A DNA stretch of 64,000 nt from Naegleria gruberi. Taxonomy: Eukaryota. A program made the position numbers and the translations under genes. The notes under the pieces are model-generated. The model was not told the DNA's origin, searched no databases, and worked only from the letters and a program-made list of their open reading frames with translations. Positions 21,581 through 39,861 of this stretch are shown in pieces; position 1 is the first letter of the stretch; the number at the start of each line of letters is the position of its first letter. Location of the stretch: assembly GCA_000004985.1 (NCBI GenBank), contig GG738920.1. One strand, written 5' to 3'.

Positions 21581-22870
21581 ATGAAAACAACACTCATCCA
21601 CAACTGCAACACTCAACCTTCCCTTGAGGAACTGATTGAATTCTCTCCGGTTGCCTGTCTTGATTGTAGAACCAACCATAGAAAATGTGACAGGAAGAAA
21701 CCAACATGTGCTGCATGTCAAATAAGAGGCTTCGATTGCACATACTCAAAAACTATGAAAAGAAAGCTCAAGAAACAAATCATCCACAACCAACTGGAAC
21801 AAGATTATAACATGATTGATTTTTATTTTAATTTGGCAAGTTATGGTCTTCCGATGGTTGGACGAGATGAGCTGAAAAGTTTTTTGACGTTGCTAGTTGA
21901 AAATGGTGGTGAAATTCCTAATAATGAGGATAAACAAGTACTAGAAATGGCTGCTCTTTTCTATTCAATTAAAGCCATTTGTGAATGCTTCACTGGAACA
22001 ATGGAAGATGCAGAGAAGGCAGCCACCAAATCAAAAAACTATCTGTCTCATGTATTTGATAGACATTGGAGTGTACTGGTTGTTGCCTGCTATTATTACT
22101 TGTGTTGGTTTGATTTTATGGTTGGAAAAGTGGAATCATCCCAATTCTATAGACAAATCTTAAAGTTTGCAAAGGAAAAGTTTGAGAAATCAACAAGACA
22201 ATTGAGTAATTTTGAGAGGAATGCCTACGAATGTATTTGTCATGTGGACGAATTCATGTTCAACGAAGAGGGAGAAGTCAGAGTGATGAATTTCGAATTA
22301 TTCATCCAATCTATTCCAAGAATGTACATTTTCGACAAGAGTAGTCTTCCTAATGGATGGAATTACTATATGAAAAATCCACACCTTATCGATTCCACAA
22401 ATTGTTTCGAAGTTTGGACCATGTTGGAGATGATTTTACATGAATCAAGGGAGAATGATCTCGAATTGATTCCAAACTTTGCTGAACTTATTAACTTGTT
22501 TTACAATATAACAGAGAATGGCACACGATTGGGCATACTATCAAAGGCCTCTAATGCATCTAGCTCACTATTGATAGAGCATGCAATGGAGAAGAGTGCA
22601 TCAGAAATAGCTTTCGCAACAACAAGTATCCACTTTAAAACCCTTCCAATAGAAATCATGATACATGTTTCAATTGCTACCAATTACCATCTCGAGAAGG
22701 TGAAGAGTGGTGTTCTCTTTCCTAAGAGAGGAGGGATAAGCTACTTGGATCTGCTATCTAAGGAGCTTCAGGCCTACAATTATTTTAAGCAAAAATTTTT
22801 GATTACTTCTCGTCATTTCTCAACCCTATTTTCACAAGTTGAACAGGTGGCAGGATTATTGAATGTTTAG
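21581..22870 (+). CDS. Zn2Cys6 (GAL4-type) transcription factor, single exon, 429 aa (Z2)
   Basis: Real ATG at 21581. ACLDCRTNHRKCDRKKPTCAACQIRGFDC gives C-x2-C-x6-C-x6-C-x2-C-x6-C. A basic stretch (KRKLKKQ) follows the cluster. The region after the zinc finger resembles the corresponding part of Z1 (IDFYFNLASYGLP... vs VDVYFSILCGTHP...). Confidence 0.65.
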   Translation: MKTTLIHNCNTQPSLEELIEFSPVACLDCRTNHRKCDRKKPTCAACQIRGFDCTYSKTMKRKLKKQIIHNQLEQDYNMIDFYFNLASYGLPMVGRDELKSFLTLLVENGGEIPNNEDKQVLEMAALFYSIKAICECFTGTMEDAEKAATKSKNYLSHVFDRHWSVLVVACYYYLCWFDFMVGKVESSQFYRQILKFAKEKFEKSTRQLSNFERNAYECICHVDEFMFNEEGEVRVMNFELFIQSIPRMYIFDKSSLPNGWNYYMKNPHLIDSTNCFEVWTMLEMILHESRENDLELIPNFAELINLFYNITENGTRLGILSKASNASSSLLIEHAMEKSASEIAFATTSIHFKTLPIEIMIHVSIATNYHLEKVKSGVLFPKRGGISYLDLLSKELQAYNYFKQKFLITSRHFSTLFSQVEQVAGLLNV

Positions 22871-23608: not shown

Positions 23609-26600
23609 ATGAAAATTCCTTCAGGAATAATTCTCCTCCTTCTACTCGGTTTTGCAGCAGCATGGTTGTTAGCAGAACATAAAGTAGAGTGCACTATCGA
23701 TCACAAAATAGTGGCAGGTGGTCTAGTCGATCCAATCACTGGTATCGATGCATCTGGTTTCAAATTCAAAAATCCTGCTTCTGCATGTGTAAATCCTAAA
23801 ACTGGTGATGTATTCTTGACTGATGCTGATACCATCAACAAACCAAGTTTAGGTTTTAATAGAATATTCAGGGTAAATAGACAAACTAACATCATTACTA
23901 CCTATGCTGGTAATGGTTACTCTTCTGTAACAAGGTAAGTTAATGAATGAGCATCATGTGATGCATACATGCATGAATGTTAATTTAACATGCTTAATCA
24001 TAATCAACACATCCAAACGTGAATTTATATAGTGGAGATGGTGAATTAGCAATTGATGCTGGCATGACTCCATCAGTTTGCACTGTGGACATGGCTGGTG
24101 ATTTGTATTTTTATGATATATCCAGTTCTGCCATTAGGGTTGTCAATGGAACAACTGGAAAGATTTCCACCTTTGCATCCGTTTCTAAACCATTTTCTCT
24201 TGCAAGTGATGATAATTTCATTTACTACTCTGCAACTTTTTCTGTTGGTAAATTCAATAAGGTTACTAAGGTTAAGACTGTTTATGATAGCAGTGTTGGT
24301 ACATCATATGTTGTGTTGGGTCTGGATGGATCATTATATTACAGTGCAACCAGTGAGAAGACCATTAAGAAGGTTGACAAACAAGGTGCAATTTCGATCA
24401 TTGCTGGTCAAACCAGTGTTGGTTGTGGAAACGGCAATAAGGATGTGTGCGGTGATGGTGGATTGGCTTCCAGTGCTCTATTTTATGTAAGTATTCACAG
24501 AGGACTAGATCCATATTTAACAACATGTATTTCCTTATTAACAATTAACAGCAACCAAGTAGTCTTCATGTACAAGAAAATGGAAACCTCGTCATTGCAG
24601 ACCAATACAGAGTAAGAATGATTTCTCCAAATGGAACCGTGTCAACTCTTGCTGGTACTGGCACTTTCAATTCTTACTTTGGTGGTGCAAACGGTGATGG
24701 CAGCTCGGCAATCACTGCTGTTCTTAAAGATGTTGGTGTTATATTTGGATACAACAATACTGTTTATATTCAAGACGCGTAAGTATTCATATTCAACTTG
24801 GTTCGTCTAATCATTTCAATAGAAGAAATCTTAGATACAGAAAGGTTGAGAATAGCATTATCAATCATGCATTTGGAACTTGTGACAAGGGAGTTGCTTT
24901 TGGAGAAGGTAACAGATTGATTAATACCAATTTGAATAGTGGTTTAGCTTCTCTTGCATTCGACTCTCAAGATAACATGTATTTGGCTTGGCAAAATATT
25001 GTTTACAAGGTCTACAATGGAATTGTTAAAAGAATTGCTGGAACTGAAATTGGTGATTATGGTACTAATGGTAATGCATTGAATGCATTACTTTCTGTTG
25101 GAAAGATTATTGTGAATTCCAACAATGATGTTATTTTCCCAGCAGTAAGTTGATACTTAATTCAATTTAACCAATTTTTGATATAGGTCAACAAAGTTAA
25201 AAAGATTGAAACCTCAACTGGTTTAGTCAGAGAATTCAATATTACTGGTCTCAATAGTCCTAAAGCAATTTGCTTGGATGCAAATGACAATTTGATCATT
25301 ATGGACACCAGTAACTGTGTCATCAAATATTTCGATGTAACAACTCAACAAGTTTCGCAACTTTCCAAGACAAATGCTGGATGCGATCCTGGAGCAAGTG
25401 GTTTTTGTAAGTTTGCACATTTTCATTGTTGATTTAATCTATATAATAGTTGTCAATTCAACATTATTTAGCTCACCTTCTGATTGTGCCGTTGATAAGA
25501 AGAATGGGGATATTTACATTTCTGAGAATAACAAGATTAGAGTTATTAGAAAATCAGATAGTAAGGTGTATACCATTGCAGGTAATGGAAACTATTGTTT
25601 GAAAACAACTTACAATACGAACAAATGTGGAGATGGAGGCTTGGCAACAAGTGCTGCTATTTCAAGTAATGGTTTGGCCCTCAATTCTGCAACTTCTGAA
25701 TTGTTCTTTTCTGGTAAGTATTTAAAATATTCTATTTCGACTAATTTCAAGATAGATCTTGCTTGGGATGGTGCTAATAATAATTATTATTCAACTATTA
25801 GAAAGGTAAATTTAACATCTGGTGTCATTTCAACTGTGGCAGGAACAGGTTCTTCACCACCAAAAACTGGTACTTACATTTATGGAGAATGGTCAGATCC
25901 ATTGGCTACTCCAATTTTAGTTTCCACAGTTTCTGTTTCAAATGGTGGAAAACTCTATTTCCCAGACGGTTCCGATCAAGGGTATATCAGAACTATTAAC
26001 TCCAATAATAGAATAGTTTCAATTACAGGTCACTATTATTCGGATTCCATTTATTACAATGGTGAAAACTTGACAGCTACCGAAAGTTATCTATGTAACC
26101 CAACAAGTATTGCCAAACATAAGAATGGCGACTTGTTCTTTGGTTTGACATGTAAAACAATTGTTCAGCAAGGTGCAGTTTGGACAACTTTTTCCAGAAT
26201 TGTAAAGTTGGATTCGAATACTGGAAGAATTAATACTATAATTGGTAATTTTAAGGAAACAACTTCTCCAGATGGATTGAGTGGATTACAAACAAGTATT
26301 AGTCCATATAGAGATGCTTCTAGCTATTTCCCATTGGGAGTTGTTGTTACTGATGCAGGTGAAGTAATTTACTCAGATTCTCAATCAAATATTATTAGAA
26401 AAGTAAGTTTCTTATAAGAATTTGTGAAATTAAGCAAATATTTAGTTGAATTTAAATGGAGTGATTGAAACTATTGTTGGAACCAATACCAGTTGTCCAA
26501 ATTCCACATACACTTGTGGAGACAATGGTGATGCCAAATTAGCAAGTAAGTTTCTTCCTAAATCTTTCCAATATTAAAAACTAATCATTCCTCACGTATT

Positions 26601-29600
26601 GGAAATATATAGATTTGAAACAACCAACTGGTCTCTTCTTGACAGAAAGTGGTGTTTTATATATTGCTGACTCTGGTAATCATAGAATTAGAAAAGTTGA
26701 AAATGGAACAATCTCAACAGTGATTGGTTCTGGATATTCTTGTTCATCTGCTGGAGCTGCTTCTTGTGATAGCACTGATCCTCTTTTGGTCAAGTTGTTG
26801 GTAAGTTATTCGACACTAGTTCGTATGATAATTTTGGTTAATAGACTCCTGCTGCTGTTTATATCACTAAATCAGGAGATGTCTATGTTGCTGATACAGG
26901 AGTAAGTTATTTGATTGATATATTTCAAAGTAATCCTATCAAATTAACTATTTAGAATAACAAAGTAAGAAAGTTGAGTAATGGAATTTTGAGCACTGTT
27001 GTTGGCACCTCGTTGGATCTTCCAACTGGTTTATTCGTCGATGAGAGCAACAATGATGTTTACATTTCTGATCGTGTAAGTTTTTCAATCTTCCTTTCAA
27101 AAATGTTTACATTTTCAATAATCTTTCAAATTATTTTAATAGACTCGTACTGTTAGAAAAGTTTCTAAAGGATTTTTATCAATCTATGCTGGTACGCTTA
27201 ACAATGCAGTATATTCAATCTCTGGAAATGTTTCTTTCTGCTATCCAACTTCAATTCTTCAAACTAATGATGGAATTCTTGTTGCTGACACTGAAAGTGG
27301 CTTGATCAGATCTGTCAAACTTTCCTGTCCAACTGGATACTATGGATTGAACTGTGAATATTACAACTGTTTTGGAATTAGCAGCTTAAACTCAAATACC
27401 TGCAATGGATTTGGTAATTGTTCAGCACCTGACGTTTGTAGTTGTGACAGCAGTCATGAAGGAAGTCAATGTGAAATTGGAAAGTGTTTTGGAATTTCAA
27501 AAAATAACTCAATGGTTTGCACTGGACATGGGTTATGTCTTTCACTTGATACTTGTTCGTGTAATGGTGATTATTACGGTGAAAAATGTAATTTACCTTA
27601 TTGTTTCTCAATCAGATCAAACGAAACTTCTGTTTGTTCTGGACAAGGCAACTGTGTTGAAAAGGATCAATGCTCATGTAGAAATAATTATTTGGGAGCA
27701 ATGTGTGAAAATGCACCATGTTTTGGAGTTTCTTACAACGCATCTAATGTTTGTTCTGGAAATGGAGAATGTGTTTCTCTCAATAACTGTACTTGCGATG
27801 AAGGTTATTATGGAGATTTATGTAATTTACCAATTTGTTTCTCTATCAAATCCAATGACTCATCAGTTTGTTCTGGACAAGGTGATTGTATTGGAAAGGA
27901 TCAATGCTCATGTAGAAATAACTATTTAGGAGCAATGTGTGAAAATGCACCATGTTTTGGAATTGTTTACAATGCAACAAATGTTTGCAGTGGACATGGA
28001 TTGTGTGTTTCAGGAAGTTGTCAATGTTCAGATAATTATTTTGGATCTAACTGTAGTGTCACCACTTGTTTTGGAACGGCCAGTAATGACAGCTCAGTAT
28101 GTAGTGGTAATGGTATTTGTTCTTCTTTTGATGAATGCAAATGCTCAACTGGATACACTGGAGTTAATTGCAATGTTTCAACTTGTTATGGATTACCTGC
28201 CACTAATGCAAGTGTATGTAGCGGACATGGATTGTGTACTTCTCCGAACCAATGTTCTTGTAATCAAGGTTGGAATGGAACTTATTGTAATGTTACTTCC
28301 TGTTTTGGTATTGTTTCTACAAGTGTTTCCAATGTTTGTAATGGACATGGTTCATGTATAGCTCCAAATGAATGTTCATGCAAACAAGGATATCTTGGTT
28401 CTTCATGTAATGTTACTTTCTGTTATGGAGTTTCTTCCAATGAGTCCAATGTTTGTTCTGGTCACGGAACTTGTGGAGATTTAAATTCTTGTTCCTGCTC
28501 TTCCGATTGGTACGGATCCAAGTGTAACATTACCACTTGTTTCGGTATTAAGGGAGACCAAAATACTGTCTGCAGTGGCCATGGCTCATGTCCATCAACC
28601 AATCAATGTAACTGTCAAGAGAATTATTATGGCACATCATGTTCTGTTCGTTGTGACTCTAATACCTGCAATGGACATGGTAACTGCTCATCAACAGGTC
28701 AGTGTCAATGTTTCTCAGATGTAGAACATGGTTTCTGGACCTCTTCTAATTGTTCGAAATGTGATTCGAATAGGTATGGTGAAAATTGTTGGGTCACTAT
28801 TGGAAATAGTTCAATGGTTACTCCAGATGGAATTGGTCTTTTATTGCAACTTGTTAATCCTAATGCAAATATTAAGAATTTGCAAGTCGATTGTAATATT
28901 TTACTTTCTTCTGAGACTATTAGAAAGTTGGATTCACCAATTTGTAGATGGACTAATTTATCAACAAGTGAATTGACCATTCAAATGGGTCTTGAAAATA
29001 GTATTCAATTAGGAGATTCTTTATATGTCAATACTAATTATTTCAACACAGCCAACTTGAAACCTTCTTACATTCCAATAACTGTCATGAAAAATTCGAA
29101 TCCAACTGTTTTACCAGAAGCTGTCATTTCCACAACTTCCAAATCTTTCAGTAATTGTGATTCAATTGTTATTCAAGGATCTGAAAGTAGAGACAAGAAT
29201 TATAGAGATTTGACTTTCGAATGGCGTTTCGTCAACTCTCCTCTTTCTCCTTCTGCCTTATCTCTCATTACGCTAACCAAACCAACACTTATTTTGGCAG
29301 ATAGTCAACCATCTGGAAATTATATTGTTGAACTCGTTGTCATTTCCAAATTTGGAGCAAGAAGTTTGCCAGTTTCTTATTCATTCAAGAAACTTTCTGC
29401 CAGTATGCCACAAATCAATGCTGAAAGCAATAGTATGGATGTATTTGTCGATAGACTTCCAATAATTGTCAAGAAATATGTTTCGTACAAGTCATGCTTG
29501 GGAGAAATTTTAAAGTCGAATGAATATACAGTGAATTGGACTCAAACCAGTGGACCAACCAATGCCAAATTCGAAACTTTACCTAACGGAGACTTGGCAA

Positions 29601-31942
29601 TTTATTCATTCCAATCTCAATTGTCCAATACTTTCACATTTGTTGCAACTTTGAATTATTCAATGGAAATTGCAAGCACAAAGGTAACAATCAATACTCA
29701 TGAACCTAATTTTGCAGTTTTGGTTTATCAAACTGATTTGAATTCAACTCATGTGACTGTCAATGTTGAAAGTGATCCAGTTGAAAGTTTGGCTCAATAC
29801 AAGGATAATATTCAGTTTACTTGGAATTGTAAGAATGTGGACGAAACTAATTGTGATTCTTCCATTTTGAATACTCTTGCTTATCACGGCAATGTTAAAT
29901 CGACCAAATTCATGTTGGCTCGTAAATCTTCATTGTCAATTCGTCTCGGATTGGATGTTACCTTATCAGGAAATAATCACAGCAATGAAATGGTTGTCAC
30001 TTTCCCTAAGGACGAAACTGTTCCAGTTGTTGAATTGGTTTCAGTTTCTCCAGCTGGTTCTCAACTCACCACTGAAGACATTTTAACCATTCAATTATTA
30101 GTTCGTGTCAGTGGTCAAATTGAAAATATCGATTCTTTAATTACAAGAAATTGGAATCTCAATGGTCAACCAATTAGTAACGATTTGGTTTTATCCCCAT
30201 CTCCATCTAAATCCAATTACATTTCTCTAGATTTATCCAAACTCAGTGCTGGTTCATCAAACACTTTGCTATTCAACGTTTCAAGTGTTTCGTCTAAGTT
30301 ATTCTCAACATTTACCTATTCCTTCTCACTTGCTCCAAATCCATTGCCATGTTCATGTTCTGTTAGTCCATCAACTGGTTTCGCTCTTGAAACTCTTTTC
30401 ACAATCAGTTGTCCTAATTGTTTGACTTCCAACACTGCTCTTCAAGTTTTATTCACAGATGTCAAGACTGGAGTCAGAGTTCCACTCATGGATGCAACTG
30501 TGTCTGAGTTGACCACTCAATTACCATATACAGGTGATGAACAACTTCCATTACATTTTGTTGTTAGAAATACCAAGACAGGAGCCAAGACTGAAACCTC
30601 AGTTTTACAATCGGCTAAAGTTCCATCCGCTATCTCATTGTCAGAAGTCAAGACAAAGAAGATGGCTTGGAATGCTTTTTATAGATCTCTCTATGCTAAT
30701 GATCCAAGAAAGGTTGTTTTCAATTATATTTCAACTGTTGTCAAAGAAATGACTAGAAGAAACTCTGTCACCAGAAGAAACTTGAAGGTAACAAACTGTT
30801 TAAATGGTGGAGTGTATAATTCATTCACCAAGATGTGTGCTTGTAAGAGTGGATTCAAGAAGATTGACTGTAGCATGACTCTTTCTGATTGGAATGCAAT
30901 TGTTTTGGATAATTACGAAACTGCCAAATCAGTCATTGAAGAATTGAATTCCAGAAATAGTTTAGAAGCCCCACAAGAATCCAAGATTGCCAGCCAAATT
31001 TCATCTCTCTATCACTTGCTGGAAACTGTCGACGAGAATAGTCCAGAATTGCTCGATCAAGTTCTTTCCATTTTCAACAATACCATTCAAGATGCCACCA
31101 AATTCTCTTACATTACAATTTCGAATTCATTGGCAAGTACAATGTCTGAAATTTTGGGATTACTTTACAAGAGTCAACTCTATAATGCTGGTAATGTGAG
31201 TGTTGAATATTTTGCAAAGATTAGAGAATTGCTCAACTCGGTTGCATCTATCAAGTACAGAAATCAATTGATTGGAAGTTCTATTGATTTTGATGCTGAT
31301 ATGTTCAAGTTGACTGGAACTAAACTCTATCCTATGGATTTATCTGGAAAGAATCTTGATACAATGATTCAACTTCCAACATTAATGACCAAATATTTGA
31401 AGAATGGAGACATGAGAAAGTCAATTAGTCCAAGAATTTTCAAGAATTCAATTATTCAATCCAAACAAACTTCTGAAATTATCAATAATCAAACAGTTGT
31501 AACATACGAAACCACTCCAGGTTACTCTCTTTCCTTAGAATTCATTAATCAAAATGTTGACATTCAAGAAAAAGTTGTTAATTATTACTTTAACCTTACT
31601 AAGACAAATATTTCTGCATACAGCAATATTAAGAACTTGGTCTCTGAAGTTGTTTGTGAAAGTGATCAACCATGTGAATTACAAACCTTAGAAACAAACT
31701 TTTATGCATGTAAATGTGCCCTTCCATCCCATGTAACAGTTAGAGAGAGAACTACGTTCACTATTGTGCCAATAGTTCCACAAAATTCTATTCCAACTCC
31801 TCAAAAATCAATTGTTCCAAAAGTTTCTCCAAAAGTTTCCAAGATTGCCACTGTTTCTGATGCTTTGCAATATTCTGGAATTAATGGATGTATTGTTGGT
31901 TTGTTAATTGTTTTATGGACCTCTGTTGCTGTCTTCTTTTAA
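23609..31942 (+). CDS. giant secreted/surface protein: signal peptide + about 10 NHL blades + about 11 EGF-like repeats + about 1100-aa Ser/Thr/Asn-rich glycosylated region + C-terminal hydrophobic anchor (12 exons, about 2570 aa)
   Basis: Exons, +/-3 nt: 23609..23934, 24033..24486, 24552..24778, 24823..25144, 25187..25406, 25450..25713, 25756..26402, 26446..26545, 26613..26800, 26845..26901, 26956..27075, 27143..31942. Introns are 42-98 nt, all GTAAGT...YAG, and all phases close. The signal peptide is MKIPSGIILLLLLGFAAAWLLA. NHL blades include CGDGGLASSA..., ADSGNHRIRKVENGTISTV and DNNVRKLSNGILSTVVG. EGF-like repeats of about 32 aa follow the pattern CFG..(10)..C.G.G.C....C.C..(8)..C. The protein ends GCIVGLLIVLWTSVAVFF, a TM or GPI signal. 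Near 23879 the ORF-track frame was used where it disagreed with the printed text by 2 nt. Confidence 0.65.
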
Positions 31943-31982: not shown

Positions 31983-34900
31983 TTATTCAAAAACTTCAGC
32001 AAATTCAGTAGCACTTCTTCCAAATATTTCAGGAGTGTACATTTCTTCTGCCTTCACACCTGGGATAACAAATGAACCGATTGAGGTAGCTCTAGCAATG
32101 TAGGTAAATTCGTGAGTGCCTTCCCATAACAATGAGCTAAATGCCTCAACTCTCTCATCTCTAATGTTGTGGTGTTCATACCAAATTGGATTAAACCACC
32201 AACACCACCAACCGTTTGATCTACTATTGGTTCCACTTCCACTTACAGTAGCAATATCTGGAGTTCCTTTCAATTCTGGATTGATTGGTTCAAGACCAGC
32301 AGGTAAAAAGTCAACTAATGCAACGTGATATCTACGACTGGTATTGGTCATGGTCAACTTGATACGAACCAATTCTCCAGCCTTAAATCTCCAAGTGTTT
32401 CTTTCTCTATCAAATGTAACATGAGAAGAATCAGTCACGTGTTCATAAGTTCTTTGAACTTCAAATCCATAATCCAATGCATCAACAAGCAAGTTCTTTG
32501 GAGCATATTCCATTCCAATTCTGTAATATAATCTTCCAGGTCCATGCTTGGAAATAGCAAGTGTCTTTTGACCATTCTCTAATAAACTCATTGGAATGCT
32601 CAATTGGTTTTCATCCTTGGATCTTCCCTTGAAAACTTGCTCTCCACAATAATCTTCACCTAGCCACATGTTGGCAACAAAATCTGGTGTCACACCTTCG
32701 AATACGTTAAAGTATGTATTAAGGGAAAGAAGGATGAAAACATTTTCTTGAGTATTTTCCCATCTACCTTTCTTTCTATGAGCCAGTAAGCCCTTGACAA
32801 TCTTTGGAATAATATAATTTTGAGGAGTAATATTAATAAGAGCTTCTAAGCAAATACCATCAGTTCTACGATTGCTGTGCAACATGACATGTTTAGTGGC
32901 CATTGCATCACCATAGCTTGTGATAAAGTTTGCTGTTTGAGCAGTTTCATTCACATGCTTATTCAAATGTTCAATGATTTGATTAACAGAAGTAGTGGCT
33001 CTCTTATTATTTGATAAATATATGGCAGTAGCCAACCAAGCTAAATGTTCAAAATTACCTGAAAGTTTGTAAGTTTGATAAAGTTTTTCAGCTAAATTCT
33101 TTGCCTCAGAATCATCTAACAATGCCAAAGCATAGTAGGCATATGCCTTGAGTGATTTGATAGTCTCCTCAGAGTAGTTCTCACAATAACTTTCAATACT
33201 TCTCAATACTGGAACCAATTTTGAGAGAGTGGATTCATTCACTGAATATCCTGCAAGCCTGGCTCTAGCAAGGGAATGACCGACGTGGCATGTAACGTAT
33301 GGACTGATACGATGATCCACTCCATTAAATGACCAGTAGCTGAATCCACCATTTGGATATTGTCTTGTTGATAATTGTCTGAGTCCTTGATTAATATTTT
33401 CATCAAGGTTTTCCTTTGTTGGAAGCTCTTGTAATTTGAAAGCAAGAAGAATATCTTTAAGAGCTAAAATTGATAATAATCTACTAGAAATTTGTTCAGA
33501 GCATGCGAAAGGATAATTGTACAAATAAAGGAAACTGTCAGTGAGTGAAGACAATGCAGTAGAGCTGGTTGAAATCTTGAGACCTCCAAATTGTGTGAAA
33601 ACATCTTGAGGAGCCTTTACAGGTTGGAACACTGAGCTATCACCATCCATTTCACCATAAGTTGCAAATGCTTCAGTTGTGGCTGGAGTAAATACTCTGA
33701 TTTCTTTTTCAACAGCATCAGAGAAGTTTACACCAGAAGTGGCGATAGAGACACCAACTTGGAATCTGGCCACACCCACCCTATCAGTAGTCATGGGGAA
33801 TCTCAATTCAGCCCTTCCTAAAGCTGGTATTCTAATCTTGAGTCCTTTCTTTGAGGTATCCAACAAGTTCAAATTGGTAAAGTTAATAGCAGCATGTACC
33901 TCCAAACTTAATTGGGTTTGATTTTGTAAAACACATGTAAATTCTGCTCTATCGCCAAAGTTCAAGAAACGAGGTAGGGATGGTCTGATTGACAATGGAA
34001 GTTGAGCAATCATAGATGATTCATGAATTCCAAAATTCCAATCTCCCTTAACAGCCACAGCTGTGATTCTGTACTTGGTAAGATTATCAGGAAGTTTAAA
34101 TTTAACAGAGGCCACTCCTTCAGAGTTTGTCTTGTTGGTTGGGCTAAAGATGGCAAGAGGATTGAAATTAGATCTCACTACAATCTTTGGTTGTTTGGAT
34201 AGTTTAGCTCCTCCTCCACCAAATCCACCTACACAACCATCACCACAACATGCACATTGGCAACAAAGGTCGTCACAACAACAGCATTCATTCATACAAT
34301 CTTCAAAACAACAATTAGCGCAAGAACTGCATGCTCTAGCAAAGCGACAACAGTTAGTAGGACTTCGCATTAACGGTAGTTCCTCTTGGAAAACAATACC
34401 ATCATAGCTCTTAACAAAAACATTATTTCTGATGGAATAAGTTTGATAATAGCTGCTGTATTCTCTAACAAATGTATCTAGAGGATTAGCAATGGTGTGG
34501 CCAGTTAATGACAATACAGCTTCATCCACAGCAATGATACAAACTTCACATCCTTCTAAAGGTTTACCAGTTATTGGATCCTTAACAATGACATCAATGC
34601 TAGTTTCGCTTCCAGGTGTCAAATATTCCCTTTCAGGCTTGGATTCAACAGATAAGGTTCTGGAAATCTTTGAAACCTTAATCATACATTCACCACTTGC
34701 AAAAGCAGGTTGTTTTGGTAAATCCTCAAGAACATTACCTATAGCATCAACCCTTGATTCGCAACCAGTAACTTCAGCACTGACGAAAATATTTGGAATA
34801 TGGTCAGAAGTAATGTCAAGTTCAAATTCAATATAGCCAGGCTCACCATCAATTTGAATAGGATGTTGGCTATGTATTCCATGAAGTCTTGTGAATAAAA

Positions 34901-37900
34901 CACCTTCACACCTTGTTTCAAAAGGAGATTGAATTAAAATCTTAGCCTTTTCTCCAATTTGATATTCAGTCTTGTCTGGAAGTAGAGTGAGTTGTTTCTT
35001 TGTAATATTCTTTCCAAGTTTTTGCTCCCTCACAGAAGCACCTGTAATGTACAAGCTTGTTGAAGAGTTATTAGTTTGGCCTGTTTCAGAATCAACAATA
35101 TCAACAGAGAAATAATAGATACCACCATTTCCAAACTTTAAAGGAACGTCAACAGCTTCCTTTCCTGAAGTGAAAACTTCATCAACAATTTCAATAGTTT
35201 CCGAAACAAATTTGTATCCCTTCTTTACCTGTACATTGGTGGTTACTTTCAATTTCATTGGAATACCAGAAACCAATTTTCCATCAATGTCAGAAACAAT
35301 TAGAGAAGCAGTTATTGGAATGTTTGGTTTGGCGAATTGTTTGCTCAACTTGATTCCACAATAATATTTACAAGGGTGAACAAGGAAGGAAGTAGATGAA
35401 GAAATGGTTTGTCTATTGATATCTTGTACAGTTGCCTCCACTGAGATGGTAACTGGTGTCTTTACCAAACGATCACTTTCATCAAAGGCAATAGCAACTT
35501 GATGCTCACCATTAACATCTGTAGTACCTTCAAAGCTTGTAACATCAAGAGCTGATCCACTTGGGAATAAATAATTTGCTACAGAGGAACCTCCAAAATT
35601 GTATGAGGATTGGTTTGGAGGAACATAACTACTACTGGTTTGTTTGATAGAATAAGAGCATTTAGCTCCTGAGATTCCTCCTCCACTATAGTAAGTAGCA
35701 TTAGTGGTACAAAGAGCAGAACCACCAACAATGTAGTTTCCAGCAGGTACTGAAGATTTAGATTTGAACTCTGGTGTTCTAAATTCTTGAACTTGGAATT
35801 GATGGAAGGCAGAGAACCCATCTAATGAGATGGAGTGACTTCCCAAGTTGGCATTATCAGGAACTTTGAATTGAATATCAAAAGTACCATCTTCACTCAG
35901 AGTTACATTACCAGAATGATACTTTTGACCTCTCGCATCCAAGACTGTGAAAGTAGAACTAGTTTTTGGTATTTCAATCTTTTCAACATTGTCAATCAAA
36001 TTGAAGTTTCTTACATAACCCTTGATGGAAACTGTTTCATTAGGCTTGTAAAGTCCTCTATCGTTGAACATGCAAGCAACAGTTTGTGGTTGATATGGAT
36101 TGTAATAGTGATAAATATCTGGAATGAAGCATGTATCTTGACCTTGAGTGGCAATAGCCTTCACATATGCTCCATATTGTTGTTCATGACCAATATTACG
36201 TATACAACCAATACCAGTTGATGAGTTAGGTGTATTTGGGGAATGATTGTTGAATTTGAAGGTTACATTATCCTTAATAATACTTCCATCCAACAATGAG
36301 TTAACCCAATAGTATACACTTGATGAACTTGTGTCAAAAACACAATCAACAGAAATTTTGGTTGCTTGAATCCAAGATGTGAAACCAGGTCTTTGATTCC
36401 ACTCACCCTTCCAGCTACTTTTTTCTGGCTCAACAATAACAAGCAATTGACCAATATTTTCAGATGGATACTGAAGATAGGAATGAAGATTGATTTCAGT
36501 CTCCACTGGTTCGTCAATTTCTCCCTTTGTTGAAATGACACTATCACAAACCAATTTACCAGGATATTGAATAGTTGAATAGGTGTTATGATGAAGAATA
36601 GATGAAGAATACATATTTGGTTGGACTTGATAAACACTCAAATGTACAGAATCCAAATTTACAGTAACAATTGGGTAGGTTGGAGTTGGATTCAAAGTTG
36701 GATCTAAAACAATCACACCAGTCTTGAATGCTTGGAGTGATTGACGTGCACTTTTAACAGTAAATTCTACAGTGGTGTCTGGAAGGATTTGACCCCAAAC
36801 ATCAACCAAATTCTTCAAGAAAACCTTATAAGTAGTTCTTCCTTTGATTTTACCAGAAACACTGATAGTGCATCCGTATGGATTTAATTCCATTCTTTCT
36901 ACTGGTGGTGAAACAGTTACCATACTTTCTGTTAATTTTTCCAAATCAATATTTGTTGTAAAATTCAATCCAAAAGCCTGCATTGGTAGCTCACCACCGT
37001 GTTTTCTTTCAAACTTGAAAGCTGGATAATTCTTGACTTGATTGCTTACATCCTTTTGTGTTGGTAATGGACCTTCTGACCCAGTAACTCCACTCTTGAC
37101 AACTACTTGAGAGGAGAGACCAAGTTTGTGACTAGTGGTAAACCACAAATGTCTTCCATCTGGAGCATGTTTGAGTTTTTGTTCGTAAAACGAATGAATG
37201 CTCCTATCTCTCTTCTCCAATTCATAATCTTTCAAAACTTTAACAATGTGCTCCTCAACGAGAGGATTCGAAGACTTTCCATCATGAATCAAATTGGCAC
37301 TTTGATTATCGATAGTAATAAATTTGATCACTTCACTTGGATTAATTTCTTGATCAAACTCACAATAGTAAATTGGTACTTCGTTGAGAGGATGAGCTTG
37401 TTGGTTTGGGAAAAATTGCTTTACATATAATCTTGGAGTTTCAAAACTAAATGTCAAATCTTCCTTCAAAGTTCCTCCAATTTCTGATTTGGTACCCTTC
37501 TTGACAGTAACTGTATACTTGGTAGACATGTCAAATCTGTAATTAGCTTCATAAATTAAAGTTTTTGTTCCCAACCACTTGAATTTTCCTCCCTTCTTTG
37601 GGAGTGGTGAAATTTCTACTGGAATATTATGACTTTCTACTTCTGCAACACCACTCACAGGAACCATTGGTTGAGAGAAGGTAATAGTCACAGATGGAAC
37701 TGATCTATCCAAAACACCTTCTGGTGAATAACGAAGCACACTCAAATCAGATCCTAACAACTTTGCCTCCTCTTCAATCAATTCCTTTGGTTTTTCCAAA
37801 CTTATTTCAGGTGGAAATGGAACACTATTAATCTCGGCAGTAATTGGTGCCTTCAATGATTTTTCTCTAATGAGAACAATAATTAGATAGAATTTTCCGA

Positions 37901-37913
37901 TTATTATTATCAT
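31983..37913 (-). CDS. alpha-2-macroglobulin / thioester-containing protein (A2M/TEP/CD109 family), about 1976 aa
   Basis: One uninterrupted ORF. The first in-frame ATG is at 37911-37913 (MIIIIGKFYLIIVLIREKSLKA, signal-peptide-like). The thioester-domain signature LYLYNYPFACSEQISSRLLSILAL (codons at + 33492..33503) aligns with A2M PYGCGEQNM. RQYPNGGFSYWS lies downstream, as does TCHVGHSLARARLAGY, which matches LTAFV...A. VRSNFNPLAIFSP matches the FPETWLW segment that follows the bait region. The C-terminal MG8/RBD-like region contains GRLYYRIGMEY. A poly-Cys low-complexity insert NCCRFARACSSCANCCFEDCMNECCCCDDLCCQCACCGDGCVGGFGGGG sits at about + 34205..34370, at the bait-region position. Confidence 0.75.
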   Translation of the reverse strand: MIIIIGKFYLIIVLIREKSLKAPITAEINSVPFPPEISLEKPKELIEEEAKLLGSDLSVLRYSPEGVLDRSVPSVTITFSQPMVPVSGVAEVESHNIPVEISPLPKKGGKFKWLGTKTLIYEANYRFDMSTKYTVTVKKGTKSEIGGTLKEDLTFSFETPRLYVKQFFPNQQAHPLNEVPIYYCEFDQEINPSEVIKFITIDNQSANLIHDGKSSNPLVEEHIVKVLKDYELEKRDRSIHSFYEQKLKHAPDGRHLWFTTSHKLGLSSQVVVKSGVTGSEGPLPTQKDVSNQVKNYPAFKFERKHGGELPMQAFGLNFTTNIDLEKLTESMVTVSPPVERMELNPYGCTISVSGKIKGRTTYKVFLKNLVDVWGQILPDTTVEFTVKSARQSLQAFKTGVIVLDPTLNPTPTYPIVTVNLDSVHLSVYQVQPNMYSSSILHHNTYSTIQYPGKLVCDSVISTKGEIDEPVETEINLHSYLQYPSENIGQLLVIVEPEKSSWKGEWNQRPGFTSWIQATKISVDCVFDTSSSSVYYWVNSLLDGSIIKDNVTFKFNNHSPNTPNSSTGIGCIRNIGHEQQYGAYVKAIATQGQDTCFIPDIYHYYNPYQPQTVACMFNDRGLYKPNETVSIKGYVRNFNLIDNVEKIEIPKTSSTFTVLDARGQKYHSGNVTLSEDGTFDIQFKVPDNANLGSHSISLDGFSAFHQFQVQEFRTPEFKSKSSVPAGNYIVGGSALCTTNATYYSGGGISGAKCSYSIKQTSSSYVPPNQSSYNFGGSSVANYLFPSGSALDVTSFEGTTDVNGEHQVAIAFDESDRLVKTPVTISVEATVQDINRQTISSSTSFLVHPCKYYCGIKLSKQFAKPNIPITASLIVSDIDGKLVSGIPMKLKVTTNVQVKKGYKFVSETIEIVDEVFTSGKEAVDVPLKFGNGGIYYFSVDIVDSETGQTNNSSTSLYITGASVREQKLGKNITKKQLTLLPDKTEYQIGEKAKILIQSPFETRCEGVLFTRLHGIHSQHPIQIDGEPGYIEFELDITSDHIPNIFVSAEVTGCESRVDAIGNVLEDLPKQPAFASGECMIKVSKISRTLSVESKPEREYLTPGSETSIDVIVKDPITGKPLEGCEVCIIAVDEAVLSLTGHTIANPLDTFVREYSSYYQTYSIRNNVFVKSYDGIVFQEELPLMRSPTNCCRFARACSSCANCCFEDCMNECCCCDDLCCQCACCGDGCVGGFGGGGAKLSKQPKIVVRSNFNPLAIFSPTNKTNSEGVASVKFKLPDNLTKYRITAVAVKGDWNFGIHESSMIAQLPLSIRPSLPRFLNFGDRAEFTCVLQNQTQLSLEVHAAINFTNLNLLDTSKKGLKIRIPALGRAELRFPMTTDRVGVARFQVGVSIATSGVNFSDAVEKEIRVFTPATTEAFATYGEMDGDSSVFQPVKAPQDVFTQFGGLKISTSSTALSSLTDSFLYLYNYPFACSEQISSRLLSILALKDILLAFKLQELPTKENLDENINQGLRQLSTRQYPNGGFSYWSFNGVDHRISPYVTCHVGHSLARARLAGYSVNESTLSKLVPVLRSIESYCENYSEETIKSLKAYAYYALALLDDSEAKNLAEKLYQTYKLSGNFEHLAWLATAIYLSNNKRATTSVNQIIEHLNKHVNETAQTANFITSYGDAMATKHVMLHSNRRTDGICLEALINITPQNYIIPKIVKGLLAHRKKGRWENTQENVFILLSLNTYFNVFEGVTPDFVANMWLGEDYCGEQVFKGRSKDENQLSIPMSLLENGQKTLAISKHGPGRLYYRIGMEYAPKNLLVDALDYGFEVQRTYEHVTDSSHVTFDRERNTWRFKAGELVRIKLTMTNTSRRYHVALVDFLPAGLEPINPELKGTPDIATVSGSGTNSRSNGWWCWWFNPIWYEHHNIRDERVEAFSSLLWEGTHEFTYIARATSIGSFVIPGVKAEEMYTPEIFGRSATEFAEVFE

Positions 37914-37924
37914 GATGTTAATCG

Positions 37925-38218
37925 TCACACAAAATTTAAAAACACAAACCTCATGAAGAAATCCTTTTGATCACCACCTTCTGATTTTACATTCGGAAGT
38001 CTACTCAGTAATCTCTGAGTTTCCTCCTCTGACAAACCCTCAATGGTTGCCGATAAATTGCTACTTGATTCATTGCTACAACTCTTTCCTTCCATCATGA
38101 TCAATGATCGGGTTGTATCCTCTGCAGTAGGCTCTCTAACACTCAACTTTAATGCACCACCCAATGATGCACTTTCAAGTTCATTGTCAAGCAATTGCTC
38201 GAGATCATATCTAACCAT
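37925..38218 (-). CDS. small acidic Ser-rich ORF (97 aa); either a separate gene or a 5' exon of the A2M/TEP gene
   Basis: Real ATG at 38216-38218. The ORF stops 1 nt before the tool start of the A2M ORF. ...DQKDFFM|R is followed by GTTTGT, and a TAG acceptor at about 37846 (cattag|AGAAAAATCATTGAAGGCACCA) would join it in frame to ...EKSLKAPITAEIN of the A2M ORF, giving an intron of about 85 nt. Confidence 0.25.
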   Translation of the reverse strand: MVRYDLEQLLDNELESASLGGALKLSVREPTAEDTTRSLIMMEGKSCSNESSSNLSATIEGLSEEETQRLLSRLPNVKSEGGDQKDFFMRFVFLNFV

Positions 38219-38439: not shown

Positions 38440-39861
38440 CTATTTAATTGAGATATATAGGAGTGTGGTGAATGACAGCAAGATGAAAGCTAATCCAATT
38501 AATTTTCTCAATCCTTTTGTATTATCAAGAGAAGGTGTTGACAACTTGGTATTAGTTTCGGCTAATGGAGTAGTGGATACTTCTTTGATTTCCTTTGGAT
38601 GCTCCTCTTGTTCAATAATATTATTATCCCAAATTAGAAGATCCGTTAATTGTTTCATTTCTTTGATATATTTGGCTCCTTGGTTGCCAATAATATTAAC
38701 ACTAATATCAAGTGCGTTTAATTGTGACATTTCACTTATGTATTTGGCTCCTTTCTCATCAATGTGATTTTCACTTATATCGAGCTCAGTTAATTTCTCG
38801 AGTTTGGATATATATTTGGCTCCCTCTCCCCTAATATTATTTTTCCATAAAGTGAGAATTGTTAATTGTTTCATATTACCAATGTATTTGGCTCCTTCCT
38901 CTCCAATATTATTGTCACTAACATCAAGATTAGTTAATTGTTTCATCTCAGAAATGTATTTTGCTCCATTGTCACCAATATTATTGCTACTGATATCGAT
39001 TTCAGTTAGTTTATCAAGGCCAGTTAAGAATTTGACTCCTTCTGCTGTTAATTCATTCCTCCAAATGTTAATACCAGTCAATTGTTTCATTTTTCCTAAG
39101 AATTTGGCCCCCTCATCTCCTATATTATTGTCATGAATTCGTAGATAGGTTAATTGATTCATACCACTAATATATTTGGTACTATCATCATATAGCATAT
39201 TACTACTGATATTAAGATCAGTCAATTTATCCAGTTTGGAAATGTGTTTGATACCTTCTGAGCTAATACCACAATAAAAGATACAAAGATCTAACAATTG
39301 TGTCATTTCTCCTATGAGTTTGGCTCCCTCATCTCCAATACTATTTTGCCCAATATTAAGATGGGTCAATTGCTTCATTTCAACAATGTACTTTACCCCA
39401 TCCAATCCAATATTATTTTCACTAACATTAAGATGAGTCAATTGTTTCATTCCACTAATATATTTTACTCCTTCATTTCCAATATTATTACCCAACATAT
39501 TGAGAATAGCCAAATACTGCATTTCACTTATGTATTTAGCTCCCTCCTCATCGATATTATTTCCATCAATATCCAATTGAGTTAATTGTTTCAGCAAACC
39601 AAGTTTTTTACAATCAAAAAGAGGATCACTTTGCTCTACTTGTAGAGTTGTAACACGTTCCAATAATTGGCCTTGTATTTTCTGGTAACTTTTAATGGAT
39701 AGTGAAAGTTTTGATCTTTCCGATATGACCTTGAACCACTGTTTCGAAACCAATACACAATTGAGTACTATGGACATGTTTACAAATGTTAAATCTTCGT
39801 GAAGGAAAGAAAATATTTCCTCTAGAATGTCATCAGGAAAGTAGACTTGCAGTTTATTCAT
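38440..39861 (-). CDS. F-box / leucine-rich-repeat protein (RNI-like LRRs) with a C-terminal hydrophobic tail anchor
   Basis: ATG at 39859-39861 (MNKLQVYFPDDILEEIFSFLHEDLTFVNMSIVLNCVLVSKQWFKVI, an F-box consensus LPDEIL..IF..L...CK.W). About 13 tandem 24-25-aa repeats of the form MKQLT.L.IS.NNIG..GAKYISE follow. The protein ends GLRKLIGLAFILLSFTTLLYISIK and the stop is TAA. Confidence 0.6.
   Translation of the reverse strand: MNKLQVYFPDDILEEIFSFLHEDLTFVNMSIVLNCVLVSKQWFKVISERSKLSLSIKSYQKIQGQLLERVTTLQVEQSDPLFDCKKLGLLKQLTQLDIDGNNIDEEGAKYISEMQYLAILNMLGNNIGNEGVKYISGMKQLTHLNVSENNIGLDGVKYIVEMKQLTHLNIGQNSIGDEGAKLIGEMTQLLDLCIFYCGISSEGIKHISKLDKLTDLNISSNMLYDDSTKYISGMNQLTYLRIHDNNIGDEGAKFLGKMKQLTGINIWRNELTAEGVKFLTGLDKLTEIDISSNNIGDNGAKYISEMKQLTNLDVSDNNIGEEGAKYIGNMKQLTILTLWKNNIRGEGAKYISKLEKLTELDISENHIDEKGAKYISEMSQLNALDISVNIIGNQGAKYIKEMKQLTDLLIWDNNIIEQEEHPKEIKEVSTTPLAETNTKLSTPSLDNTKGLRKLIGLAFILLSFTTLLYISIK

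What the first reader, a model, noticed from the sequence alone, without database searches (positions are those of the whole stretch)
23609..31942. 12-exon gene for a roughly 2570-aa surface protein combining a signal peptide, about 10 NHL blades, about 11 EGF-like repeats, a mucin-like glycosylated stalk and a C-terminal anchor
Eleven short introns of 42-98 nt interrupt only the NHL-propeller part. The EGF repeats and the roughly 1100-residue S/T/N-rich region, which is dense in N-x-S/T sites, are in one 4.8-kb exon. NHL plus EGF with a membrane anchor recalls teneurin- or tenascin-like adhesion and recognition molecules, but the domain order here is different (N-terminal NHL propellers, then EGF, then stalk, then anchor). 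I know of no described family with this layout. It looks like a lineage-specific cell-surface receptor or adhesin. It is convergent with the TEP/A2M gene, with the two stops 40 nt apart.
Basis: partly seen in the sequence, partly recalled or inferred. Interest (0 to 1): 0.65.

Follow-up and report, generated by a model that had tools for sequence, protein, structure and literature searches.

The report
Naegleria NHL–EGF–REJ–GAIN surface receptor gene
This is a real 12-exon gene of the amoeba Naegleria gruberi for a giant cell-surface protein, but its supposed "mucin stalk" is a folded PKD/REJ plus GAIN module like the outer part of polycystin-1 and sea-urchin egg-jelly receptors, which extends that module to a distant branch of eukaryotes.

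Summary
The gene is real. It runs from ATG 23609 to the stop at 31940-31942 and has 11 GTAAGT...AG introns of 42-98 nt, all in the NHL-coding part. The last exon is 4,800 nt. It lies in Naegleria gruberi and encodes about 2,574 aa.

- **Confirmed:** signal peptide, NHL repeats, EGF array (12 modules plus one isolated), a hydrophobic C-terminal anchor, and the convergent A2M gene with stops 40 nt apart.
- **Corrected:** there are about 18 NHL blades, not 10, enough for three six-bladed propellers.

The protein belongs to a vahlkampfiid family of EGF-REJ-GAIN single-pass proteins, with at least 17 N. gruberi paralogues and relatives in N. lovaniensis, N. fowleri and Willaertia. These are all annotated only as predicted or hypothetical proteins. 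This copy has no cytoplasmic tail, so its end reads as a GPI signal or a tail-less anchor.

The most likely role is adhesion or recognition. That role is inferred, not shown.

The parts
23609..31942 (+). Whole gene: 12 exons, 11 introns, 7,725-nt CDS, about 2,574 aa
   Evidence: The only intron combination that gives an open frame from ATG 23609 to TAA 31940-31942. CDS GC is 0.36 against 0.19-0.30 in the introns.
23609..23934 (+). Exon 1 (start codon, signal peptide, first NHL blade)
24033..24486 (+). Exon 2
   Evidence: Intron 1 is 23935-24032 (98 nt, GTAAGT..TAG).
24552..24778 (+). Exon 3
   Evidence: Intron 2 is 24487-24551 (65 nt, GTAAGT..CAG).
24823..25144 (+). Exon 4. Its acceptor is ambiguous: 24822, 24834 or 24840 all keep the frame.
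   Evidence: The 44-nt intron gives D-ARNLRYRKV, the best fit to the NHL motif D-xxNxRIRKV.
25187..25406 (+). Exon 5
   Evidence: Intron 4 is 25145-25186 (42 nt).
25450..25713 (+). Exon 6
   Evidence: Intron 5 is 25407-25449 (43 nt).
25756..26402 (+). Exon 7
   Evidence: Intron 6 is 25714-25755 (42 nt). It is in frame and free of stops, so stop codons cannot show that it is spliced.
26446..26545 (+). Exon 8
   Evidence: Intron 7 is 26403-26445 (43 nt).
26613..26800 (+). Exon 9
   Evidence: Intron 8 is 26546-26612 (67 nt).
26845..26901 (+). Exon 10
   Evidence: Intron 9 is 26801-26844 (44 nt).
26956..27075 (+). Exon 11
   Evidence: Intron 10 is 26902-26955 (54 nt).
27143..31942 (+). Exon 12 (4,800 nt): last two NHL blades, the EGF array, PKD/REJ, the EGF-like module, GAIN, the linker, the anchor and the stop
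   Evidence: Intron 11 is 27076-27142 (67 nt). The frame is uninterrupted to the stop.
23609..23674 (+). Signal peptide MKIPSGIILLLLLGFAAAWLLA
   Evidence: Hydrophobicity peak at aa 1-8 in 19-aa windows. No dedicated predictor was run.
23765..27331 (+). NHL region, aa about 53-1038: 18 NHL-like blades, inferred to form three six-bladed propellers
   Evidence: Pfam TEN_NHL 4e-37 and NHL 4e-30. Self-profile finds 18 blades. The closest solved relatives are a teneurin-like protein at 4e-30, PknD-derived six-bladed propellers and teneurins 2-4.
27323..28795 (+). Array of 12 teneurin/tenascin-type EGF modules with a 39-aa period
   Evidence: Pfam EGF_2 5e-53 (12 stretches) and EGF_Teneurin 1e-48. 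There are 12 C-x-C motifs about 39 aa apart.
27586..28011 (+). 234-bp tandem duplication (two EGF modules, 1.8 copies, 83% identical) inside the array
   Evidence: Tandem Repeats Finder.
28802..30619 (+). String of PKD-type/Ig-like β-sandwich domains (PKD-like plus REJ module), about 606 aa.
29054..29431 (+). PKD-like domain
   Evidence: Many multi-PKD proteins match this segment repeatedly. They score K319L-like_PKD/PKD_4 up to 1e-118.
29792..30415 (+). Segment matched by Pfam REJ (PF02010), including the family-invariant P-x-C-x-C...G...T-F...C core
   Evidence: REJ 2.4e-11, 43.4 bits against a cut-off of 25. Invariant columns are listed.
30791..30877 (+). Isolated EGF-like module before the GAIN domain
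   Evidence: Matches teneurin and Notch EGF modules in the profile search. Modelled as short β-hairpins.
30881..31765 (+). GAIN domain: five-helix subdomain A plus β-sandwich subdomain B
31655..31744 (+). GPS-like motif CESDQPC-x11-CKCALPSHVTVR: four conserved Cys, the two Trp missing, L-P-S in place of H-L-T/S
   Evidence: Aligned in register with the Pfam-scoring GPS of family member P0194 (30 bits against a cut-off of 22.5) and of Willaertia P0199. The four Cys are the only invariant columns.
31766..31885 (+). Pro/Lys/Ser-rich juxtamembrane linker, including the candidate GPI ω site S-D-A
   Evidence: pLDDT below 50. Sequence read directly.
31886..31939 (+). C-terminal hydrophobic anchor GCIVGLLIVLWTSVAVFF, with no residue after it
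   Evidence: Hydrophobicity peak and modelled helix. The stop follows directly and no downstream frame encodes a tail.

Best explanation
This is an intact Naegleria gruberi gene for a secreted surface protein of about 2,574 aa that is held in the membrane by its C-terminus.

**Order of parts, from the membrane outward**
1. A hydrophobic C-terminal segment with no cytoplasmic residue. It is most simply read as a GPI-attachment signal (ω candidate S-D-A, an 8-residue spacer, a 17-18-residue hydrophobic end). Otherwise it is a tail-less transmembrane anchor.
2. A flexible Pro-rich linker of about 40 residues.
3. A GAIN domain whose GPS motif has lost the H-L-T/S triad. It is therefore probably an uncleaved structural or mechanical module.
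4. One EGF-like module and a short helical connector.
5. A stalk of about 600 residues made of PKD/REJ β-sandwich domains.
6. A rod of 12 EGF modules.
7. About 18 NHL blades at the far end, probably three six-bladed propellers. These are the likely ligand-binding heads.

**Family.** It belongs to a vahlkampfiid-specific, expanded family of EGF-PKD/REJ-GAIN single-pass proteins. Most paralogues have a transmembrane helix and a short basic tail.

**Shown here:** the gene structure, the domain identities, the GAIN fold and the family membership.

**Inferred:** the propeller count, GPI anchoring, absence of autoproteolysis, and the role. The proposed role is adhesion to, or recognition of, substrate, prey or other cells. 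Any signalling would have to pass through a partner in cis, because the protein has no cytoplasmic part.
For: - **Gene model:**
- **Organism:** 7 of 10 neighbouring ORF products are exact N. gruberi entries.
- **Domains:** NHL, EGF and REJ by Pfam; 18 blades; 12 EGF modules.
- **Family:** 226 hits. The long colinear ones I looked up (20) are N. gruberi (17), N. lovaniensis, N. fowleri and Willaertia, plus two unnamed environmental proteins. The same NHL, EGF, REJ order occurs in P0131, P0134 and P0136.
- **No tail:** the stop directly follows the hydrophobic segment, and the A2M gene ends 40 nt further on.
Against: - No transcript or protein evidence was available, and intron 6 cannot be verified from stop codons.
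- No GPI, signal-peptide or transmembrane predictor could be run. The hydrophobic end is modelled as a helix, and nearly all paralogues are true type I membrane proteins with tails. A tail-less transmembrane anchor, or a recently truncated copy, is therefore a live alternative.
- Pfam GPS does not score on the target itself.
- The propeller count is inferred from a repeat count, not from a model.
- No ligand, localisation or phenotype is known for any family member.
- The closest homologue, in N. lovaniensis, is only 33-37% identical, is not syntenic and has different intron positions. Orthology is therefore unproven.
Confidence: 0.7

Rival explanations
1. Same protein and same domains, but it is a type I membrane protein with a tail-less transmembrane helix rather than a GPI-anchored one. 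It works in cis with tailed paralogues.
For: The last 25 residues are modelled as a helix. All paralogues with a complete C-terminus have a transmembrane helix at the aligned position.
Against: There is no stop-transfer basic residue and no cytoplasmic residue at all. A small-residue S-D-A site, an 8-residue spacer and a 17-18-residue hydrophobic end fit the usual GPI signal. This was judged by reading the sequence; no predictor was run.
Confidence: 0.3
2. One reading: a teneurin- or tenascin-like adhesin whose membrane-proximal half is a mucin-like, heavily glycosylated, unstructured stalk.
For: Teneurin-type NHL and EGF Pfam matches. Overall S/T/N content is about 30%.
Against: - S/T/N and sequon density in the "stalk" equal those of the NHL propeller part, and there is no PTS low-complexity run.
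- The region carries a Pfam REJ domain.
- It is modelled with confidence as β-sandwiches plus a GAIN domain.
- No YD/RHS shell, fibrinogen globe or type II topology is present.
Confidence: 0.04
3. A polycystin-1/REJ-type sensory receptor. The REJ-GAIN ectodomain regulates a partner TRPP-like channel or another receptor, as SpREJ1 and PC1 do, possibly on the flagellate stage.
For: REJ plus GAIN next to the membrane is the signature ectodomain of the PKD1 family. Single-pass members exist (SpREJ1, 8 and 9; PMC1934368). A related multi-pass protein with REJ, EGF and a canonical GPS exists in an unnamed environmental eukaryote (P0194).
Against: The target has no PLAT/LH2 domain, no 11-TM bundle, no channel domain, no cytoplasmic residue and a degenerate GPS. 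I did not look for a partner channel.
Confidence: 0.12
4. A decaying, C-terminally truncated paralogue that lost its cytoplasmic tail and no longer functions, or a chimeric gene model that joins two genes.
For: The tail with the family [IV]-E-[LM] motif is missing. The neighbouring A2M gene abuts the 3' end. No expression data are available.
Against: The 7,725-nt spliced frame has no stop. All 11 splice sites are consensus. NHL motifs are continuous across the junctions. All four GPS cysteines and the invariant REJ core residues are retained. The NHL to EGF junction lies inside one exon.
Confidence: 0.05

Closest known systems
Sea-urchin receptor-for-egg-jelly proteins with one transmembrane segment (SpREJ1, 8, 9) and, more broadly, the polycystin-1 (PKD1) family ectodomain
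   Same: A large secreted ectodomain in which ligand-binding modules and EGF are followed by PKD-type repeats, a REJ module of about 500-600 residues and a juxtamembrane GPS/GAIN domain, then a single membrane anchor (PMC1934368).
   Different: The target has NHL propellers and a 12-EGF rod instead of C-type lectin, LRR or WSC modules. It has no PLAT/LH2 domain, no 11-TM or channel part and no cytoplasmic tail at all. Its GPS lacks His-Leu-Thr/Ser and the two Trp. It comes from a heterolobosean amoeba, not an animal.
Teneurins
   Same: The NHL region scores best on the teneurin NHL model (TEN_NHL 4e-37). The closest solved relatives are teneurin-like proteins and teneurins. The EGF modules score on the teneurin EGF models.
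   Different: - The order is reversed (NHL, then EGF, then membrane), and so is the topology: signal peptide plus C-terminal anchor, against type II.
- There are about 18 blades instead of 6 and 12 EGF modules instead of 8.
- There is no YD/RHS shell, no FN-plug and no Tox-GHH domain.
- The nearest NHL sequences overall are bacterial.
Adhesion GPCRs (latrophilin, BAI, CELSR, ADGRG6)
   Different: There is no 7TM domain, the cleavage triad is not conserved, and the anchor is single or a lipid.
Uncharacterised Naegleria/Willaertia EGF-REJ proteins (e.g. N. lovaniensis C9374_005657; N. gruberi D2W4B5, D2VAZ1, D2VYF3; N. fowleri FDP41_007388; W. magna ABK040_014254)
   Same: They are true homologues. 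C9374_005657 is colinear from aa 55 to 2515, with NHL, EGF and REJ in the same order. The EGF-like plus GAIN module, the four GPS cysteines and the REJ core are shared.
   Different: Identity is only 33-39% or less. The paralogues vary in NHL and EGF content. Nearly all have a transmembrane helix plus a basic tail with an [IV]-E-[LM] motif, which the target lacks. None has been studied.

Membership tests
NHL-repeat β-propeller proteins | Repeated NHL motif of about 40-50 aa that scores on the NHL models | tested here: met
   Pfam NHL 4.4e-30 (102.6 bits against a cut-off of 20) and TEN_NHL 4.3e-37. Self-profile finds 18 blades. PDB relatives are six-bladed propellers.
Teneurin | Type II topology: N-terminal cytoplasmic domain, transmembrane helix, then ectodomain | tested here: not met
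   N-terminal signal peptide and a hydrophobic segment at the extreme C-terminus.
Teneurin | YD/RHS-repeat shell with a Tox-GHH-like C-terminal domain | tested here: not met
   No RHS, YD or Tox-GHH Pfam match at E up to 0.1 anywhere in the protein.
Teneurin | EGF repeats that precede a single six-bladed NHL propeller | tested here: not met
   The modules are of the teneurin type, but the order is reversed and there are about 18 blades.
PKD1/REJ family (PMC1934368: defined by the REJ domain; SpREJ members share REJ, GPS and PLAT) | REJ domain | tested here: met
   PF02010 at 2.4e-11, 43.4 bits against a cut-off of 25. Paralogues score up to 3.6e-39.
PKD1/REJ family | Juxtamembrane GPS motif within a GAIN domain | tested here: inconclusive
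PKD1/REJ family | Cytoplasmic PLAT/LH2 domain and multi-pass (11-TM) membrane part | tested here: not met
   There is only one hydrophobic segment after the signal peptide, and nothing follows it.
Adhesion GPCR | GAIN domain followed by a 7TM domain | tested here: not met
   GAIN is present. There is no 7TM domain.
Autoproteolytic GAIN domains | His-Leu|Thr/Ser at the GPS cleavage site (PMC3321182) | tested here: not met
   The target reads C-K-C-A-L-P-S. The closest homologue has Q-S-T. Only P0194 (H-T-T) and Willaertia P0199 (H-A-T) keep the His. Cleavage itself was not tested.
Mucin-like stalk | Long Pro/Thr/Ser-rich low-complexity, unstructured region | tested here: not met
   S+T is 0.22 and Pro 0.05. 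The highest S+T in any 50-aa window is 0.36, reached by a single window. The region is modelled as folded.
GPI-anchored proteins | N-terminal signal peptide plus a C-terminal signal: small ω/ω+2 residues, a polar spacer, and a hydrophobic end with no cytoplasmic residues | not testable with these tools
   The pattern is present by eye: S-D-A, then LQYSGING, then CIVGLLIVLWTSVAVFF. No GPI predictor or experiment was available.
Vahlkampfiid EGF-PKD/REJ-GAIN single-pass family (defined here) | Colinear homology over PKD/REJ, the EGF-like module and GAIN, with the four GPS Cys and the P-x-C-x-C REJ core | tested here: met
   E 2e-186 to P0131 and 3e-151 to P0132 over about 980 aa. Invariant columns are listed.

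The most novel reading that the evidence does not exclude
The REJ-GAIN tandem, known as the hallmark of animal polycystin-1/REJ proteins, is an old eukaryotic juxtamembrane cassette that predates its attachment to 7TM or 11TM bundles. In Heterolobosea it survives in its simplest form, on single-pass or lipid-anchored proteins. It was independently fused to a bacterial-type NHL propeller array and teneurin-type EGF modules, giving a convergent, inverted "teneurin". In that setting the GAIN domain would act without any receptor core, for example as a force-bearing or shedding module. This would make its ancestral, GPCR-independent function testable in a free-living amoeba.
Probability: 0.2. Interest if true: 0.7.

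Novelty: new variant of a known kind. Interest (0 to 1): 0.45.

Why it matters
GAIN and REJ domains are studied almost only in animal adhesion GPCRs and polycystins, where mutations cause polycystic kidney disease and other disorders. What the GAIN domain did before it was joined to a 7TM or 11TM core is an open question.

Here a clear GAIN fold sits behind a REJ module in a protein with no receptor core and no cytoplasmic part. It belongs to an expanded family in Heterolobosea, a lineage very distant from animals. Relatives occur in the pathogen N. fowleri and may be surface antigens or adhesins.

The finding also shows that teneurin-type NHL and EGF modules were combined in a second, inverted way outside the animal and choanoflagellate lineage.

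On the practical side, I could not retrieve any protein for this locus from the public protein collection. The spliced model given here is therefore a usable annotation.

Tried and rejected
- **Word-index homology searches.** The whole-protein search was swamped by bacterial NHL proteins. The search with the C-terminal 1,046 aa found nothing. Only the exhaustive HMMER search found the family.
- **First splice-path search.** My first exhaustive script timed out. I replaced it with a curated combination test.
- **Paralogues in the window.** tblastn found none.
- **Fetching the N. gruberi locus annotation.** Look-ups through neighbouring proteins failed because those genes are not in the contig index. 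I therefore could not see whether a public model exists. Accession bookkeeping runs from EFC37225 at 18.5 kb to EFC37229 at 40.7 kb. It suggests that one plus-strand model should lie in between, but no protein more than 39% identical is in the collection.
- **PDB searches on the stalk.** A single-sequence search found nothing. Foldseek on the 1,046-residue model returned only generic tandem-Ig proteins. The GAIN question needed a separate model of the last 329 residues.
- **AlphaFold database.** It was not available.
- **Synteny and shared introns with the N. lovaniensis homologue.** Neither was found, so I do not call it an orthologue.
- **Literature.** Searches for Naegleria with NHL/EGF, REJ or GAIN found nothing relevant. 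A search on GPI anchoring in Naegleria was uninformative.
- **Rejected readings.** Mucin stalk, teneurin membership (no YD shell, wrong topology) and adhesion GPCR or polycystin membership (no multi-pass part).

Full report
**Where the window comes from.** GC content is about 35% throughout, and genes carry short GTAAGT...AG introns. Seven of ten neighbouring ATG-to-stop ORF products are exact matches to Naegleria gruberi proteins on a 218,836-bp scaffold.

**Gene model.**
- Starting at ATG 23609, the reading frame stays open to TAA 31940-31942 only with the following eleven introns removed:
  - 23935-24032, 24487-24551, 24779-24822, 25145-25186
  - 25407-25449, 25714-25755, 26403-26445, 26546-26612
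  - 26801-26844, 26902-26955, 27076-27142
- All donors are GTAAGT. Ten acceptors are TAG and one is CAG. Intron GC is 0.19-0.30 against 0.36 for the CDS. Retaining any intron except number 6 creates a premature stop.
- Intron 3 has three further in-frame acceptors (intron lengths of 44, 47, 56 or 62 nt, giving 2,574/2,573/2,570/2,568 aa). The 44-nt version restores the NHL motif best (D-ARNLRYRKV).
- NHL motifs run continuously across the junctions, for example VYVADTG|NNKVRKL and YISDR|TRTVRKV. The spliced product aligns to a homologue without junction artefacts.
- Exon 12 (27143-31942, 4,800 nt) holds the last two NHL blades and everything downstream. The link between NHL and EGF therefore does not depend on splicing.

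**Domains confirmed.**
- Pfam gives TEN_NHL 4.3e-37, NHL 4.4e-30, EGF_2 5.2e-53 in 12 stretches, and EGF_Teneurin 9.8e-49.
- A profile built from the protein's own blades finds 18 NHL-like blades between aa 53 and 1038, not about 10. This is enough for three six-bladed propellers. The closest solved relatives are six-bladed propellers: a teneurin-like protein at 4e-30, PknD-derived designs, and teneurins 2-4.
- Twelve C-x-C motifs about 39 residues apart define 12 EGF modules. A 234-bp, two-module tandem duplication at 27586-28011 shows that the array expanded recently.
- The only strongly hydrophobic stretches are the N-terminal signal peptide and the last 18 residues.

**The "mucin-like stalk" is not there.**
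- In the 1,048 residues after the EGF array, S+T+N is 0.30, against 0.28 in the NHL part.
- N-x-S/T sequons are 1.1 per 100 residues, equal to the NHL part and well below the 3.7 of the EGF array.
- Pro is 5%, and only one 50-residue window (starting at aa 2001) reaches even 36% S+T.
- Pfam finds a REJ domain (PF02010, 2.4e-11, 43.4 bits, cut-off 25).

**Relatives.**
- The two word-index searches failed.
- The exhaustive HMMER search with the last 1,046 residues found 226 proteins.
- The best is N. lovaniensis C9374_005657: 2,537 aa, E 2e-186, colinear with the target from aa 55 to 2515 at 33-37% identity, with NHL, EGF and REJ in the same order.
- Next come many N. gruberi paralogues (17 of those I looked up), an N. 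fowleri "PKD/REJ-like domain-containing protein" and Willaertia magna proteins.
- Their Pfam content is a variable number of NHL and EGF modules followed by REJ. Nearly all end in a transmembrane helix and a short basic tail that carries an [IV]-E-[LM] motif.
- Shorter repeated matches to residues 85-210 of the query come from multi-PKD-domain proteins. That segment is therefore a PKD-type domain.
- No protein more than 39% identical to the target is in the collection, although its neighbours are. Either this locus has no retrievable public model, or its record is missing. Accession bookkeeping suggests that a model may exist, but this is an inference.
- The N. lovaniensis locus is not syntenic. 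Its four introns, also confined to the NHL part, lie at other positions. I therefore call it the closest homologue, not an orthologue.

**Structure of the C-terminal half.**
- With a 21-row family alignment, AlphaFold2 modelled the last 1,046 residues at mean pLDDT 74.5:

| Residues of the 1,046-aa model | Modelled as |
|---|---|
| 1-606 | β-sandwich domains |
| 613-660 | helices |
| 671-680 | two short β-strands of the small EGF-like module |
| 694-819 | helical bundle |
| 827-988 | β-sandwich |
| 984-1022 | disordered linker |
| 1020-1045 | terminal helix |

- A separate model of the last folded 329 residues (window 30791-31777) reached pLDDT 89.1 and pTM 0.81.
- Independently, a sequence profile of this module from 20 family members hit the ADGRL3 GAIN domain at E 5.9e-7 over 228 positions, ending on its CSCNHLTNFAVL motif.
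- Family member P0194 scores on Pfam GPS (30 bits, cut-off 22.5) at the position aligned with the target's C-x5-C-x11-C-x-C.
- The fold description in the GAIN paper, a helical subdomain A (six helices there, five modelled here) plus a β-sandwich subdomain B with the GPS strands integrated, matches the model (PMC3321182).

**State of the cleavage site.**
- The four GPS cysteines are the only invariant columns of the module.
- Canonical GAIN domains have C-x-C-x-H-L|T/S. The target has C-K-C-A-L-P-S and lacks both GPS tryptophans.
- The N. lovaniensis protein has Q-S-T. N. gruberi paralogues have Q/K/R-L/F-T. Only P0194 (H-T-T) and Willaertia (H-A-T) keep the histidine.
- I infer that the target's GAIN domain is not autoproteolytic. 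This was not tested.

**The anchor.**
- The protein ends ...KIATVSDALQYSGING-CIVGLLIVLWTSVAVFF-stop.
- No downstream frame encodes a tail, and the minus-strand A2M gene ends 40 nt further on.
- A small S-D-A site, an eight-residue polar spacer and a 17-18-residue hydrophobic end with nothing after it fit a GPI-attachment signal.
- The alignment with paralogues' transmembrane helices keeps a tail-less transmembrane anchor as a serious alternative. No predictor was available.

**How it most likely works.**
- Shown: a secreted, membrane-tethered protein whose ectodomain, from the membrane outward, is linker, GAIN, EGF-like module, PKD/REJ stalk, 12-EGF rod and NHL blades.
- Inferred:
  - The NHL propellers at the tip bind a ligand, as NHL propellers do in teneurins (my own knowledge of that family, not tested here).
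  - The EGF rod and the PKD/REJ string act as a long spacer.
  - The GAIN domain acts as an uncleaved juxtamembrane module.
  - With no cytoplasmic residue, the protein can only adhere, or signal through a partner in cis. Tailed paralogues are obvious candidates.
- I put about 0.9 on the architecture and family assignment, and about 0.4 on the adhesion or recognition role.

**Comparison with known families.**
- The membrane-proximal half has the ectodomain plan of the PKD1/REJ family. [quoted passage not shown] SpREJ1, 8 and 9 have a single transmembrane segment, and SpREJ1 has an EGF module. The target meets the REJ criterion and has the GAIN fold. It has no PLAT domain, no multi-pass part and a degenerate GPS, so I file it as REJ-family-like rather than as a polycystin.
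- It is not a teneurin: the topology and order are wrong, and there is no YD shell or toxin domain.
- It is not an adhesion GPCR: there is no 7TM domain.
- It is not a mucin.
- GAIN domains in protists were already reported for Dictyostelium and Tetrahymena (PMC3321182). REJ+GPS proteins have been reported in brown algae (PMC4700764).
- I found nothing on Naegleria.

**Verdict.** It also places the protein inside a recognisable, if unstudied, family that has deposited homologues. It is a new variant of a known kind, of moderate interest.

Noticed in passing
window 31983-37928 (- strand): The convergent "TEP/A2M" neighbour is a single 1,981-codon ORF of the bacterial α2-macroglobulin type (Pfam bMG10 2e-32, A2M_BRD, MG2, Big_5). 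It has CSEQ and CGEQ motifs. An intron-less bacterial-type A2M in Naegleria may have arrived by horizontal transfer.
   Followed up: partly
window 27586-28011: A 234-bp tandem duplication (two EGF modules, 1.8 copies, 83% identical) lies inside the EGF array. It indicates recent expansion of the array.
   Followed up: yes
window 25714-25755: Intron 6 (42 nt) is in frame and contains no stop. Retaining it would add 14 residues without breaking the protein. It is the only junction that frame logic cannot settle.
   Followed up: partly
window 24779-24840: Intron 3 has four in-frame acceptor AGs (intron lengths 44, 47, 56 and 62 nt). The 44-nt choice fits the NHL motif best, but alternative acceptor use is possible.
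   Followed up: partly
paralogues P0131-P0150 (C-termini): The short cytoplasmic tails of the family share an [IV]-E-[LM] motif, and many end in -TV or -SV (e.g. QIELRTFSTV, QIELITV, EVELMTV, VELQWSV). This may be a sorting or PDZ-type signal. The target has no tail at all.
   Followed up: no
P0194 (unnamed environmental eukaryote, 1,495 aa) and P0199 (Willaertia magna): These relatives keep a near-canonical GPS (CICNHTTDFSVF, CQCSHATIFAIT). P0194 continues into several hydrophobic segments, so multi-pass REJ-EGF-GAIN proteins exist beside the single-pass ones.
   Followed up: partly
L001 10001-17866 (N. lovaniensis PYSW02000025.1): The closest homologue has only four introns. They are also confined to the NHL part, followed by a 5.5-kb last exon, but their positions differ from the target's, and the neighbourhood is not syntenic. 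Its deposited model starts without a signal peptide, so its 5' end may be incomplete.
   Followed up: partly
window 21581-22870 (+) and 38440-39954 (-): The flanking ORFs encode a fungal-type Zn(2)-Cys(6) binuclear cluster protein (2.6e-9) and an F-box-like plus leucine-rich-repeat protein.
   Followed up: no
whole locus 23609-31942: No protein more than 39% identical to this gene's product is in the 15-billion-protein collection, although most neighbouring N. gruberi proteins are. Accession numbering of the neighbours (EFC37225 to EFC37229) suggests that a public model may nevertheless exist.
   Followed up: partly
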